A DNA stretch of 64,000 nucleotides from an uncultured Actinomycetes bacterium (GTDB lineage: Bacteria; Actinomycetota; Thermoleophilia; Gaiellales; Gaiellaceae): the NCBI GenBank assembly GCA_963728765.1, contig CAVSKX010000004.1, positions 470,137 through 534,136 on the forward strand. Direction: 5' to 3'. Within the stretch, counting starts at the first letter, position 1. The number at the start of each line of letters is the position of its first letter. The notes below the pieces were generated by a model that worked only from the letters and a program-made list of their open reading frames with translations, made no database searches and was not told the DNA's origin. Below are positions 7,876 through 50,913 of the stretch, in pieces. The position numbers and the translations under genes are program-made.

Positions 7876-7924
7876 TCTGCCTTCGGGCCCGGGAGAAAGC
7901 GGCGCATTTCCGGCACCCTCACGG

Positions 7925-7982
7925 CACAGACACGTGCGCCCACGCGCTGTACGCTCGCCTCGGGGAGGAGGCCGGGCGAACC
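7925..7982 (+). promoter_or_regulatory. Bipartite intergenic element R1 (14-mer, 11-nt spacer, TACGCT, G-rich box)
   Basis: CACAGACACGTGCG-N11-TACGCT-CGCCTCGGGGAGGAGGCCGGGCGAACC. It is essentially identical to 41238-41295 outside the spacer. The geometry is CAGACA, 17 nt, TACGCT. Confidence 0.5.
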
Positions 7983-8003
7983 CTCCCGAGACCACGCCGA
8001 AGC

Positions 8004-15656: not shown

Positions 15657-15737
15657 AGGGAGCGGATTCTGCCCACGGGCACGGTTGCGGGAAACGAGAG
15701 CTGAGGACGAATCGACCCGGATCCGGCACGAACGAGG

Positions 15738-15812
15738 CACACACGCGTGCGTCGAAGACGGGTACCGTCGACCGCGGAGGGAGGCGGGCTAGAGCCCCAC
15801 CCTCGGGTGGGG
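15738..15812 (+). promoter_or_regulatory. Bipartite intergenic element R5 plus C-rich/G-rich hairpin
   Basis: CACACACGCGTGCG-N11-TACCGT-CGACCGCGGAGGGAGGCGGGCTAGAG, followed by CCCCACCC-TC-GGGTGGGG. Same geometry as R1-R4. Confidence 0.45.
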
Positions 15813-15841
15813 GTACGGGTCTTCGCGGCCGGACGAGCTGG

Positions 15842-40027: not shown

Positions 40028-41152
40028 TCACACTGGCGACAGCGGCAAGACGTCCTCGAGCGGGTGGAAGTCGAGCCCGTGCGCGTCCGCGACAGCCTCG
40101 TACGTGACCTTGCCGTCGAGCACGTTGACGCCGCGCGCCAGAGCGCGGTCACGCGCGACGGCCTCCGCAAGCCCGTGGCCGGCGATCGCCTCGACGTACG
40201 GCAGCGTCACGTTTGTGAGCGCCTTCGTCGACGTGATCGGAACCGCGCCCGGCATGTTCGCGACGCAATAGTGCGTTACACCGTCGACGACGTAGACGGG
40301 CTCGCTGTGTGTCGTCGGGCGCGAGGTCTCGGCGCTCCCGCCCTGGTCGATCGCGACATCGGCGAGGACGGCGCCGTCCTTCATCTGCGCGACCATCTCG
40401 CGCGTCACGAGCTTCGGCGCCACGGCGCCGGGGATCAGGACGGCGCCGATTACGACGTCGGCCTCCGCGACCGACTCCTCGATCTGCAGCGACGACGACA
40501 TCACGAGGCTGACCCGGCCCGACAGGATCTCGTCGAGGTGACGCATCCGGTCGACCGAGCGCTCGAGGATCGTCACGTTCGCGCCGAAGCCCAGCGCGAT
40601 GATCGCAGCGTTGTAGCCGACGATCCCGCCGCCGATCACGAGCACGCGGCCGGGCGCCACTCCCGGCACGCCGCTGAGCAGCAGGCCGCGGCCGCCAAGC
40701 GGCTTCTCGAGGAAGTACGCGCCGGCCTGCGCCGCCAGCCGGCCGGCGATCTCGCTCATCGGAGCCAGCAGCGGCAGCGCGCCGTTGTCCGTCTCGACCG
40801 TCTCGTAGGCGACGCACGCTGCGCCGCTCTCGGCGAGCGCTCGGGTGAGCTCCTCGCTCGCCGCGAGGTGGAGGTAGGTGAAGAGGACGAGGCCCTCGTG
40901 GAGACGTGGGTACTCGTCGGGCAGAGGCTCCTTCACTTTCAGCAGGAGCTCGGAATCGCGCCAGACCTCGTCGACGGACGCGAGCGTGGCGCCGACCGAG
41001 CTGTAGGCGTCGTCCGGGAAGGAGCTGCCTTCGCCGGCGCCTGTCTCGACGACCACGTCGTGCCCGCCCTGAACGAGCTCCCGCGCGCCCGCGGGCGTCA
41101 GCGCGACGCGGTACTCGTCGGACTTGATCTCCTTGACGACTCCGACCTTCAT
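40028..41152 (-). CDS. ald: Alanine dehydrogenase
   Basis: Starts at M17 of ORF 40028..41200 (MKVGVVKEIKSDEYRVALTP). NAD motif VIGGGIVG. Confidence 0.95.
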   Translation of the reverse strand: MKVGVVKEIKSDEYRVALTPAGARELVQGGHDVVVETGAGEGSSFPDDAYSSVGATLASVDEVWRDSELLLKVKEPLPDEYPRLHEGLVLFTYLHLAASEELTRALAESGAACVAYETVETDNGALPLLAPMSEIAGRLAAQAGAYFLEKPLGGRGLLLSGVPGVAPGRVLVIGGGIVGYNAAIIALGFGANVTILERSVDRMRHLDEILSGRVSLVMSSSLQIEESVAEADVVIGAVLIPGAVAPKLVTREMVAQMKDGAVLADVAIDQGGSAETSRPTTHSEPVYVVDGVTHYCVANMPGAVPITSTKALTNVTLPYVEAIAGHGLAEAVARDRALARGVNVLDGKVTYEAVADAHGLDFHPLEDVLPLSPV

Positions 41153-41237
41153 CGGGGCGAGAAACCCTAGCTTCTCGGCGCTTGGCCGATGTCGAGACAC
41201 GCCGTGGACGGTCCGTCACAGATCAGGCACGAAGCGT

Positions 41238-41332
41238 CACAGACACGTGCGGCGGCGCCGAATATGCTCGCCTCGGGGAGGAGGCCGGGCGAACCGTAGT
41301 GAGGAGCGGCCGAGAGAGAACGGGGTGGCAGC
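41238..41332 (+). promoter_or_regulatory. Bipartite intergenic element R2 with an extended tail
   Basis: CACAGACACGTGCG-N11-TATGCT-CGCCTCGGGGAGGAGGCCGGGCGAACC, then CCGTAGT ... GAGAGAGAACGGGGTGGCAGC, ending 15 nt from the upstream stop codon. Confidence 0.5.
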
Positions 41333-41347
41333 ATTGAGCTCGCCGCG

Positions 41348-42292
41348 TTACGCGCCAGCTGGGCGGAGCAGGCTGCGGGCTGCGACGCCTGCACCGTAGG
41401 CCGCCGCGAAGAAGTCCGGATCTTCGTCCGGCCCACGGCCCATGTGCGAGAGCGGCAGTCCCGCGCACGCCTCGCGCCAACCGCCCGATGGTTCCGCAAC
41501 CACGACCTCGCCGCGCACGAGCGCGAGCACGGCCTCTGTGTGGTGGGATCTCCCCCGGTGCCGGTCCCGCTCATCGGCGACGGAAATCCGCTGCGCGACG
41601 ACCGGCAAGCCGCCGAGCGAAAGTACCGCGTTCGCCGAGTCTGCAGCCGCGAGGCCGCCGTGGCCGAAGCGCGTCCCGGTCCCGACGATCCCCGGGCCAA
41701 CCGAGCAGACGGCTACGTCGTGCTCCCCGCGGGCCCAGAGAAGGGCCGAGGCCGGTGAGACGCATTGCACCTCCGCGTCGAAGCACGGCGCCACCGCCGC
41801 GGTCGAGGCCAGCAAGCCGCGCTCCCGCAGCGTCCGCACCGTGTCCGACAGCGACACCGGCAGTGCGCCGCCTGCGAGCTGCAGGTACGCGACGCGCAAC
41901 CCCTCCAGCGCCGCGCACACCGGCGAGACCTGGCTGTGGAGCGAGCAGCAGACGACCGGCATCCCCTCCAAGGCGTCCGCACTCTCCCCCGCCTCCTCCG
42001 CATGGACACGCGCGTGCTGGAGCGGCGTGTACGGCAGGACCATCACGTGCGCCCCTTCCTCGGCCGCGAGCTCGAGGCCGCGCGTCAGGTTCGCGTAGAG
42101 AACGTCGAACCCGCCGCTGCCGAGCTCGAGCTCCCACGCCTGCACGTTCACCAGCACCTCGTCCTCGAGCGCGACCGGCCCCGTGACCGTCGGGTAGGCG
42201 ACGCAGGCGACCCCGTCGACCTCCAGCCGTACGAAGGCGTCGTGCCGCTCGCGTATAGCGGTGACGCGGCCGCGCCGCAGGCTAAGCGCCAC
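41348..42292 (-). CDS. Conserved hypothetical protein (DUF3866-like, recalled from memory)
   Basis: 314 aa. N-terminal pattern RRGRVTAIRERHDAFVRLEVDGVACVAYPTVTGPVALEDEVLVNVQAWELELGSGGFDV. Confidence 0.6.
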   Translation of the reverse strand: MALSLRRGRVTAIRERHDAFVRLEVDGVACVAYPTVTGPVALEDEVLVNVQAWELELGSGGFDVLYANLTRGLELAAEEGAHVMVLPYTPLQHARVHAEEAGESADALEGMPVVCCSLHSQVSPVCAALEGLRVAYLQLAGGALPVSLSDTVRTLRERGLLASTAAVAPCFDAEVQCVSPASALLWARGEHDVAVCSVGPGIVGTGTRFGHGGLAAADSANAVLSLGGLPVVAQRISVADERDRHRGRSHHTEAVLALVRGEVVVAEPSGGWREACAGLPLSHMGRGPDEDPDFFAAAYGAGVAARSLLRPAGA

Positions 42293-50785: not shown

Positions 50786-50858
50786 CGTCCGCTCGACCGG
50801 CGCGGCGACCCGCAGAAACAGCCGAGTGCCGGCGCCGCGTTTTCTGTTCACGCGCGCA

Positions 50859-50913
50859 CCCCTGGGTGGGTGGGGGTTAGGGACGGTACCGGTCGTGAGC
50901 GCACGAGTGTGTG
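50859..50913 (-). promoter_or_regulatory. Bipartite element R4: promoter-like half conserved, C-rich instead of G-rich downstream box, sense to recN
   Basis: Minus strand: CACACACTCGTGCG-N11-TACCGT-CCCTAACCCCCACCCACCCAGGGG. Confidence 0.45.

What the first reader, a model, noticed from the sequence alone, without database searches (positions are those of the whole stretch)
41238..41332. Element copy R2: identical core, about 95 nt long, with a duplicated upstream half-site
It has the same blocks as R1. Beyond the G-rich box it continues CCGTAGT...GAGAGAGAACGGGGTGGCAGC. This tail is shared with R3 (CCGTAGT...GAGAAC...AACGGGCGGCGGCAGC) but not with R1. The unit ends 15 nt from the stop of the DUF3866-like gene. 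CGTCACAGA occurs twice, 21 nt apart (41214-41222 and 41235-41243). The 14-mer lies 86 nt upstream of the ald start on the opposite strand. A conserved tail suggests a transcribed product of about 70-100 nt rather than a bare promoter.
Basis: seen in the sequence. Interest (0 to 1): 0.6.

Follow-up and report, generated by a model that had tools for sequence, protein, structure and literature searches.

The report
Conserved promoter launching ribosome-site-like RNA

Summary
R2 is real and non-random. It is one of 13 'G-box' copies in this 3.4-Mb Gaiellaceae MAG. They belong to a set of about 41 promoter cassettes with the same layout: three G(T/G)CAC direct repeats 10-11 bp apart, a -35-like CAGACA, a 17-nt spacer and a TAnnnT -10.

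The genome's own leaderless genes place the transcription start 6-7 nt after the -10, at 41275, the first G of GGGGAGGAGG. Sibling cassettes put a start codon exactly there, including a Pfam-confirmed comEA.

Only about -62 to +33 is conserved. In 28 orthologous ald loci, +1..+21 is 97% identical, above the 88% of the ald coding start. Beyond +33 identity falls to 32-37%, which is background. The R2-R3 tail resemblance is at chance level, and there is no excess folding, terminator or covariation. A structured 70-100-nt sRNA is therefore not supported.

The G-box pairs 10/10 with the 16S 3' end (-14.5 kcal/mol), no start codon follows, and RNase J is present. My best reading is an activator-dependent promoter giving an untranslated, 30S-binding (STAB-SD-like) RNA that runs antisense into the DUF3866 gene. 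The promoter and start site are well supported. The RNA's function is inferred. No RNA-seq could be used.

The parts
41215..41219 (+). Direct repeat 1 (GTCAC, inside CGTCACAGA 41214-41222), about -60 from the predicted start
   Evidence: Family consensus is G(T/G)CAC at -61/-60.
41226..41230 (+). Direct repeat 2 (GGCAC), 11 nt after repeat 1
   Evidence: Family consensus is ttcGGCAC at -53..-46.
41236..41240 (+). Direct repeat 3 (GTCAC, inside CGTCACAGA 41235-41243), 10 nt after repeat 2, abutting the -35
41240..41245 (+). -35-like hexamer CAGACA, followed by the conserved block CGTGCG and a 17-nt spacer
   Evidence: Column counts: A-32 in 161/170, C-31 in 158/170.
41263..41268 (+). -10 hexamer TATGCT (TAnnnT)
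   Evidence: T-12, A-11 and T-7 are each 161/170 while the middle positions vary. They are invariant in 27 ald orthologues.
41269..41274 (+). Discriminator CGCCTC, nearly invariant
41275..41284 (+). Predicted transcription start (41275) and G-box GGGGAGGAGG, complementary to the last 10 nt of 16S rRNA
   Evidence: Genome-wide TAnnnT-to-start spacing peaks at 6-7 nt. Sibling cassettes place ATG/GTG at this position. 16S 3' end. Duplex -14.5 kcal/mol with 10/10 paired.
41275..41307 (+). Conserved 5' segment of the predicted RNA (+1..+33): GGGGAGGAGGCCGGGCGAACCGTAGTGAGGAGC
   Evidence: Information content falls to zero after about +33. Orthologue identity is 0.97 for +1..+21 and 0.68 for +22..+33.
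41308..41347 (+). Non-conserved 'tail'; not part of the element
41348..42292 (-). Convergent DUF3866 gene; the predicted RNA enters its 3' end at +74
40028..41152 (-). Divergent ald (alanine dehydrogenase) gene. Its own -10 (TAGGGT, 41164-41169 on the minus strand) persists where the element is absent.
   Evidence: Pfam; empty site in L087.
7922..7994 (+). R1, sibling G-box copy
31725..31797 (+). R3, diverged sibling: same promoter, degenerate G-box, keeps CCGTAGTAC

Best explanation
R2 is one copy of a vertically inherited, activator-dependent sigma-70-type promoter cassette of Gaiellaceae.

Anatomy: three G(T/G)CAC repeats spaced 10-11 bp, the layout used by OmpR/PhoB-family response regulators such as MtrA, lie upstream of and abut a -35-like CAGACA. 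Seventeen nt further on is the -10, TATGCT.

Transcription starts on the + strand at 41275. The RNA is untranslated, and its first 21-33 nt are the selected part: 5'-GGGGAGGAGGCCGGGCGAACCGUAGU.

The first ten bases pair with the whole 3' tail of 16S rRNA, and no start codon follows. I infer that this 5' end binds 30S subunits. That would work like a STAB-SD 5' stabiliser, protecting the RNA from RNase J. With about 13 co-regulated copies it could also act as a decoy for anti-SD sites.

In R2 the transcript has no conserved 3' part. It runs antisense into the 3' end of the DUF3866 gene, against read-through towards ald.

Shown: conservation boundaries, promoter anatomy, start-site rule, 16S complementarity, absence of structure or ORF.
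Inferred: that it is transcribed, which regulator acts on it, 30S binding, and the biological effect.
For: Copies and spread:
- 13 copies in this genome.
- Matches in 24/24 (BLAST of the element) and 48/48 (that 601-nt query also includes ald and DUF3866 coding sequence) genus genomes.
- 18 of 89 genera in the family; the reversed-pattern control gave 0-1.
- At least 120 soil metagenome contigs.

Promoter signature:
- T-12, A-11 and T-7 are each 161/170, with G-14 and the -35 block also conserved.

Start site:
- Genome-wide, TAnnnT lies 6 nt (185 cases) or 7 nt (128 cases) before candidate start codons, against a background of about 10.
- The same cassette places ATG or GTG exactly at +1 in five loci. 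One is a Pfam-verified ComEA (SLBB + HHH_3).

Selection:
- At 28 ald orthologues ascertained through ald, identity is 0.97 for +1..+21 and 0.86 for -12..-1, against 0.88 for the ald coding start and 0.32-0.37 for the tail.
- Copies sit at orthologous positions next to ald, ribE, ridA, murE/ftsI and ftcD/hutH.

30S binding logic:
- The 16S rRNA ends in CCUCCUUUCU.
- The G-box duplex is -14.5 kcal/mol, against about -9 for GGAGG.
- The sequence shows no ATG, GTG or TTG 5-10 nt downstream.
- RNase J is present.
- The STAB-SD precedent is described in PMC4113751.
- The 5' 35 nt are slightly less folded than shuffles, z = +0.5.

Regulator type:
- The repeats fit the MtrA GTnAC direct-repeat consensus with an 11-nt period (PMC6265350; PMC5650626).
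Against: - There is no transcript evidence of any kind.
- No terminator or defined 3' end was found.
- The invariant discriminator (-6..-1) and the conserved +11..+33 are not explained by 30S binding alone.
- Classical STAB-SD sits in front of a translated gene. About 80% of copies with a determinable downstream neighbour face a convergent gene instead (113 against 29, 28 undetermined).
- R3 has lost the SD-like box but keeps the promoter.
- No regulator gene lies next to any cassette.
Confidence: 0.55

Rival explanations
1. The RNA product is irrelevant and the element works at the DNA or transcription level. A strong promoter fires against the upstream gene. Its G-rich initial transcribed region holds or stalls RNA polymerase, for example by pausing, an R-loop or G-run slippage. 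This blocks read-through from DUF3866 into ald and insulates neighbouring transcription units in a genome that seems poor in hairpin terminators.
For: - Orientation bias: the downstream neighbour is convergent in 113 copies and co-directional in 29. The upstream neighbour is divergent in 91 and co-directional in 39.
- In this genome, 7-8 tandem-gene contexts are antisense against 1 sense.
- There is no terminator, no conserved tail and no structure.
- The discriminator and the first 21 nt, which govern promoter escape, are the most conserved part.
- Other cassette types also begin with G-runs.
Against: - The counts are inflated by orthology and are not independent events.
- Four of the 13 copies in this genome point at co-directional genes (hutH, purD, an MBL hydrolase, a hypothetical).
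- The same promoter drives ordinary genes such as comEA, era, tgt, gatA and hemD, so it is not intrinsically a roadblock.
- An exact SD complement is not required by this model.
Confidence: 0.2
2. The functional strand is the minus strand. Downstream of the DUF3866 stop, the sequence UCGCC-CGG[CCUCCUCC]CCG-a-GGCGA forms a hairpin with a C/U-rich, anti-SD-like loop. It would act as a 3'-UTR terminator or a 3'-UTR-derived sRNA of the CcsR/6C kind.
For: - The minus-strand hairpin is stable, contributing most of -20.4 kcal/mol for the 67-nt stretch.
- There is a weak CcsR1 hit on the minus strand (12.2 bits, E = 2.2).
- Most copies lie just after the stop codon of a minus-strand gene.
Against: - The CcsR1 hit is far below the gathering score of 65.3, and nothing passes gathering.
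- There is no compensatory change.
- 15 of the 18 one-sided changes are C-to-U. These keep G-U pairs on the + strand but would be A-C mismatches on the minus strand.
- The TAnnnT information profile and the start codons at +1 in sibling cassettes fix the promoter on the + strand.
- Copies with co-directional downstream genes have no minus-strand gene to terminate.
Confidence: 0.07
3. One reading: a discrete, structured trans-acting sRNA of 70-100 nt, whose conserved tail is part of the functional RNA.
For: - The transcribed region is conserved beyond the promoter.
- Multi-copy sRNA families controlled by one regulator are a known kind.
Against: - Tail identity is at background, 0.32-0.37.
- The R2-R3 tail match is at chance level.
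- Folding z-scores are about 0.
- No covariation.
- Convergent stop codons lie as close as +23.
- No extended complementary target was found in the genome.
Confidence: 0.05
4. A miniature mobile element, MITE- or REP-like, that carries an outward-facing promoter and has spread to intergenic sites.
For: - It is multi-copy and confined to intergenic sites.
- It is present or absent at the ald locus across the genus. An empty site in G062 keeps the ald promoter.
Against: - Copies are positionally orthologous across species whose flanking genes are only about 75% identical.
- No terminal inverted repeats or target-site duplication appear in the filled-versus-empty comparison.
- The conservation profile is that of a promoter plus transcript start, not of element ends.
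Confidence: 0.05

Closest known systems
OmpR/PhoB-family response-regulator promoters (MtrA boxes of Actinobacteria, pho boxes, M. tuberculosis PhoP repeats)
   Same: Short direct repeats with a period of about 11 bp. The promoter-proximal repeat abuts or replaces the -35. The repeat core GTCAC fits the published MtrA consensus GTnAC (PMC6265350, PMC5650626).
   Different: There are three repeats, plus a further invariant block (ACACGTGCG) between the -35 and the spacer. The regulator is unidentified: the genome has 20 OmpR-type DNA-binding domains, and none lies beside a cassette.
Multi-copy sRNA regulons driven by one two-component regulator (streptococcal csRNAs/CiaR, Vibrio Qrr/LuxO). Named from my own knowledge.
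   Same: Many paralogous short non-coding transcription units per genome share one regulator-type promoter and a conserved RNA segment.
   Different: Those sRNAs have conserved hairpins, terminators and C/U-rich anti-SD seeds. Here only the first 21-33 nt are conserved, the seed is purine-rich and SD-like, and there is no terminator or structure.
STAB-SD 5' mRNA stabiliser (cry3A of Bacillus thuringiensis)
   Same: An SD-like sequence near the RNA 5' end is complementary to the 16S 3' end and does not start translation. The proposed effect is to block the 5'-3' exonuclease RNase J (PMC4113751). An RNase J homologue is present here.
   Different: STAB-SD lies in the leader of a translated mRNA. 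Most G-box copies, R2 included, have no downstream gene and run into a convergent one. Here the SD-like box is at the very first nucleotide.
CcsR1 / 6C-type sRNAs with C-rich loops
   Same: The minus strand of the element can form a hairpin with a CCUCCUCC loop.
   Different: The Rfam score is 12 bits against a gathering score of 65. The promoter evidence places transcription on the other strand.

Membership tests
OmpR/PhoB-type (MtrA-like) activated promoter | Direct repeats of a 5-7-nt core with a period of about 11 bp | tested here: met
   GTCAC 41215, GGCAC 41226, GTCAC 41236. Family columns -61, -50 and -39.
OmpR/PhoB-type (MtrA-like) activated promoter | Promoter-proximal repeat adjoining or overlapping the -35, with a normal -10 | tested here: met
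   Repeat 3 ends at the first base of CAGACA. 17-nt spacer, then TATGCT.
OmpR/PhoB-type (MtrA-like) activated promoter | Binding and activation by a phosphorylated response regulator | not testable with these tools
   20 Trans_reg_C proteins are encoded. None is linked to a cassette.
Leaderless-type sigma-70 promoter of this genome | Start 6-7 nt after TAnnnT | tested here: met
   Genome-wide peak of 185 and 128 against a background of about 10. Sibling cassettes have ATG/GTG at +1, one of them ComEA.
Trans-acting base-pairing sRNA | Discrete transcript with a terminator or stable structure | tested here: not met
   Mean folding z from +0.5 to -0.06 in 170 copies. R2 z from -0.16 to +1.1.
Trans-acting base-pairing sRNA | Conserved seed with complementary targets | tested here: inconclusive
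   The seed is conserved. Among sites with 0-1 mismatch to the complement of the first 16 nt I saw only the antisense strand of element copies and a few sites in coding sequence; none looked like a target. The output was cut and only partly read.
STAB-SD 5' stabiliser | SD-like sequence near the 5' end, complementary to the 16S 3' end | tested here: met
   10/10 nt paired, -14.5 kcal/mol.
STAB-SD 5' stabiliser | Does not direct translation (no start codon at SD spacing) | tested here: met
   The sequence CCGGGCGAACCG after the box has no ATG, GTG or TTG. There is no conserved ORF in orthologues.
STAB-SD 5' stabiliser | 5'-3' exonuclease present in the host | tested here: met
   RNase_J_C domain, E = 3.7e-24.
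STAB-SD 5' stabiliser | Lies in the leader of a translated mRNA and raises its stability | tested here: not met
   R2 faces the convergent DUF3866 gene. 113 of the 142 copies with a determinable downstream neighbour do likewise. Stability itself cannot be tested here.
Rfam CcsR1 (RF02791) | Score at or above the gathering threshold | tested here: not met
   12.2 bits against 65.3. No family passes gathering in the window.
MITE/REP-like mobile repeat | Terminal inverted repeats or target-site duplication; copies at non-orthologous sites | tested here: not met
   The filled-versus-empty ald site shows no duplication. Copies are positionally orthologous.
CsrA/Rsm-sponge RNA | Host encodes CsrA | tested here: not met
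   No PF02599 match in the genome.

The most novel reading that the evidence does not exclude
The G-box RNAs are a co-regulated family of Shine-Dalgarno decoys. About 13 promoters per genome would release short RNAs on one signal, and the 5' ends of these RNAs occupy the anti-SD of free 30S subunits. In this organism leaderless genes are at least as common as SD-led genes. Such a burst would shift translation away from SD-led mRNAs towards leaderless ones, which would be a global translational switch of a kind not described before.
Probability: 0.12. Interest if true: 0.8.

Novelty: new variant of a known kind. Interest (0 to 1): 0.5.

Why it matters
Gaiellaceae are abundant soil actinobacteria; every genome with this element that I saw is a metagenome-assembled genome, and nothing in Rfam or in the few papers I searched describes this element. 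This cassette gives:
- a calibrated promoter and start-site model for the lineage;
- a putative regulon of about 41 transcription units in this genome, mostly short G-rich RNAs;
- a concrete, testable idea that an SD mimic at the extreme 5' end stabilises an RNA or titrates ribosomes in a largely leaderless translation system.

For annotation, it marks about 13 sites per genome where antisense transcription into the 3' ends of housekeeping genes (DUF3866, ftsI, glyS, methylmalonyl-CoA mutase) should be expected.

Tried and rejected
- **Rfam.** Nothing at gathering in the window. Only sub-threshold CcsR1 and ar14 hits around R2. Nothing for three other cassette types.
- **RNA-seq.** Metagenome contigs gave no transcript-like ends.
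- **Structure.** No excess folding. The mutual-information scan found only a 1-nt register shift in the upstream repeats. The -7..+17 hairpin is 98.6% paired but has no compensatory change, and its 5' arm lies upstream of the start.
- **Small ORF.** The GTG at +25 in R2 gives 12 aa, is not conserved in orthologues, and lies 15 nt from the SD.
- **Trans targets.** No convincing non-element site complementary to the first 16 nt (output only partly read).
- **Pairing with helix 45 of 16S.** The AACCGUAG match fails in the 46 copies that carry A at +22.
- **CsrA sponge.** No CsrA gene.
- **Regulator by autoregulation.** No OmpR-type gene lies beside a cassette.
- **Functional theme of neighbours.** None: ald, ribE, murE, tilS, phoH, thiolase, PDRP and others.
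- **Mobile element.** Rejected on orthology and the lack of TSD or TIR.
- **C-to-T tolerance as strand evidence.** Partly an artefact, because my search pattern allowed C/T at +11. Only position -1 is unbiased.

Full report
**Observation**

The region 41154-41347 is the spacer between two minus-strand genes. One is DUF3866 (41348-42292, Pfam E = 5e-70). The other is alanine dehydrogenase (40028-41152, AlaDh_PNT E = 2e-82).

- The 30-nt core GCTCGCCTCGGGGAGGAGGCCGGGCGAACC is identical in R1 and R2. No such match occurs in shuffles.
- CGTCACAGA occurs twice, 21 nt apart.

**Family**

- BLAST of R2 against the window's own assembly finds 13 clear copies. The assembly is 3.38 Mb, 70% GC, in 8 contigs.
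- Matches were found in 24/24 (BLAST of the element) and 48/48 (a 601-nt query that also spans ald and DUF3866 coding sequence) genomes of the genus.
- It occurs in 18 of 89 genera sampled in the family. The reversed-pattern control gave 0-1.
- It occurs in at least 113 genome contigs, nearly all titled Gaiellaceae, Gaiellales or unclassified Actinomycetota MAGs (one is labelled Anaeromyxobacteraceae), and in at least 120 soil metagenome contigs.
- Copies are positionally orthologous. Among 169 loci from other genomes, the element lies beside orthologues of ald (40), ribE (20), ridA (12), murE/ftsI (11) and ftcD/hutH (11).
- One genus member, G062, has an 'empty' ald site. It keeps the ald -10 (TAGGGT) but lacks the element, so ald does not depend on it.

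**Anatomy**

I anchored 170 unique copies at the G-box. Information content is confined to about -62..+33.

- G(T/G)CAC repeats lie at -61, -50 and -39.
- A conserved block, CGTCACAGACACGTGCG, contains a -35-like CAGACA.
- A 17-nt spacer follows, with G at -14.
- T-12, A-11 and T-7 are each present in 161 of 170 copies while the three middle positions vary. This is the information profile of a TAnnnT -10.
- A near-invariant CGCCTC comes next.
- Then follows GGGGAGGAGGCCGGGCGAACCGtAcTaaGGG.
- After +33 there is no signal.

**Start site**

The genome calibrates its own rule. TAnnnT lies 6 nt (185 cases) or 7 nt (128 cases) upstream of candidate start codons, against a background of about 10 at other spacings. 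Leaderless mRNAs are therefore common.

Applied to R2 (TATGCT at 41263-41268), the start is G41275, the first base of the G-box.

A position weight matrix of the promoter half alone (-41..-7) finds 41 cassettes in this genome. Five carry ATG or GTG exactly at the predicted +1. One of these is a Pfam-verified ComEA (SLBB and HHH_3). Others lead into what I read by eye, from the translated downstream sequence, as era, tgt, gatA and hemD; these four were not checked against Pfam. This fixes both the strand and the start of the cassette.

**Is the tail real?**

No. The evidence is as follows.

| Segment, 28 ald-locus orthologues found through ald coding similarity | Mean pairwise identity |
|---|---|
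| +1..+21 | 0.97 |
| -12..-1 | 0.86 |
| first 90 nt of ald | 0.88 |
| +22..+33 | 0.68 |
| +34..+53 | 0.37 |
| +54..+73 | 0.32 |

- Random expectation at this base composition is about 0.29.
- The closest relative, 90% identical overall, already has a different tail.
- The best R2-R3 tail alignment scores 17. This is reached by 3.2% of shuffles and by 11 of 169 unrelated tails.
- In other copies the convergent gene's stop codon sits as close as +23..+25.

**Is it a structured sRNA?**

No evidence supports this.

- R2 folds no better than shuffles, with z from -0.16 to +1.1.
- Over 170 copies, mean z is +0.50 (+1..+35), +0.16 (+1..+80) and -0.06 (+30..+110). The reverse complement gives the same.
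- The one tidy hairpin (-7..+17) is 98.6% paired but has no compensatory change. Its 5' arm lies upstream of the start.
- Rfam has nothing at gathering. CcsR1 on the minus strand scores 12 bits against 65.

**What the conserved 5' end could do**

- The genome's 16S rRNA ends in ...GGAUCACCUCCUUUCU.
- GGGGAGGAGG pairs with all ten terminal bases at -14.5 kcal/mol. GGAGG gives about -9.
- No start codon follows at SD spacing, and no ORF is conserved.
- The 5' segment is, if anything, less folded than shuffles.
- An RNase J homologue is present.

This is the logic of the STAB-SD stabiliser: 30S binding to an SD-like 5' sequence that does not initiate translation, blocking 5'-3' decay (PMC4113751). 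With about 13 co-regulated copies, a decoy effect on 30S is also conceivable. CsrA is absent. No extended trans target was found.

**Regulator**

GTCAC repeats with an 11-nt period match the published MtrA consensus. In M. tuberculosis this is c-G-T/A-n-A-C/T-c, a 9-nt direct repeat with a 2-nt spacer (PMC6265350). In S. coelicolor it is GT(G/T)AC repeats separated by five nucleotides (PMC5650626).

The genome encodes 20 OmpR-type DNA-binding domains, none next to a cassette. The regulator's identity is therefore open.

**Context**

Of the 170 copies, 113 face a convergent gene and 29 a co-directional one. The upstream neighbour is divergent in 91 and co-directional in 39. These counts are not independent, because many copies are orthologues.

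In this genome the neighbours are housekeeping genes with no common theme. R2's transcript would enter the DUF3866 ORF at +74, opposing read-through towards ald. An insulator or interference role in which the RNA itself is unimportant is the main rival.

**Verdict**

- Well supported: the element is a conserved, probably activator-dependent promoter, plus a 21-33-nt conserved transcript start that mimics a ribosome-binding site.
- Inferred: its function (STAB-SD-like 5' protection or a 30S decoy, on an antisense or orphan transcript).
- Untested: transcription itself.

Two earlier follow-ups in this scan reached the same basic reading for other copies.
- the start-site calibration;
- the roughly 41-member cassette set, with coding members starting at +1;
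- positional orthology and the empty site;
- quantified failure of the tail and structure hypotheses;
- full complementarity to the 16S tail, with RNase J present.

Noticed in passing
Own genome, 41 sites. In the window: 15734-15830 (+) and 50917-50840 (-).: The same promoter cassette drives other short G-rich starts. About 8 copies read GGGYGGCGGGTGG followed by a CCCCACCC/GGGTGGGG hairpin. Four or five read CCCCGGGTGGGTGGGGGTTAGGGATGGG, which looks G-quadruplex-like. Several are GGGGGC...GCCCCC hairpins. Some appear, from my by-eye reading of the downstream translations (not Pfam-checked), to be leaders of era, tgt, gatA and hemD; others are orphans facing convergent genes. None matches Rfam.
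   Followed up: partly
Window 50858-50882 (-) (R4, upstream of recN) compared with G000:C4:73080 (+): The transcribed start of R4, CCCTAACCCCCACCCACCCAGGGGT, is the exact reverse complement (25/25) of the 'type C' start ACCCCTGGGTGGGTGGGGGTTAGGG, which the same promoter drives elsewhere. A second such copy lies at C2:31369. The two RNA classes could form a duplex of about 19 bp.
   Followed up: partly
G000:C2:31322 (-) and C2:31369 (+): Two cassettes sit back to back. One starts a leaderless comEA whose mRNA carries CCUCCUCC at +12..+19, complementary to the G-box core. The other starts a C-rich RNA. Other cassettes lie before comF-like and recN genes and after dnaE2.
   Followed up: no
Several cassette loci, e.g. 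window 50845-50856 (-), G000:C4:776711 and C2:182950: The motif GCGCGCGTGAAC, or its complement GTTCACGCGCG, recurs 40-55 nt after the start of many non-G-box cassettes. At C4:236912 it forms the palindrome GTGAACATTCAC. Its meaning is unknown.
   Followed up: no
Whole genome: There is a strong leaderless signature. TAnnnT lies exactly 6 or 7 nt before candidate start codons in 185 and 128 cases, against a background of about 10. GGAGG at SD spacing is rarer, at about 40-55 per offset.
   Followed up: yes
L087 (G062:C4:220658-223887): This is an empty site. ald and its TAGGGT -10 are intact, but the whole cassette is missing, and the convergent gene's stop lies about 50 nt from the ald ATG. 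In one search roughly a dozen of the 48 genus genomes matched only the ald end of the query, which suggests they also lack a recognisable copy at ald; apart from L087 I did not inspect them.
   Followed up: partly
Family-wide, +22..+27 of the element: A conserved A/T-rich patch (TAcTaa) stands out in a 70% GC context. In about ten copies the convergent gene's stop codon falls within about +23..+28, overlapping this patch. No convergent ORF reaches closer than +23.
   Followed up: partly
G000:C4:600301 (+): One G-box copy sits between ftsI and murE inside the cell-division/cell-wall gene cluster, firing antisense into ftsI.
   Followed up: no
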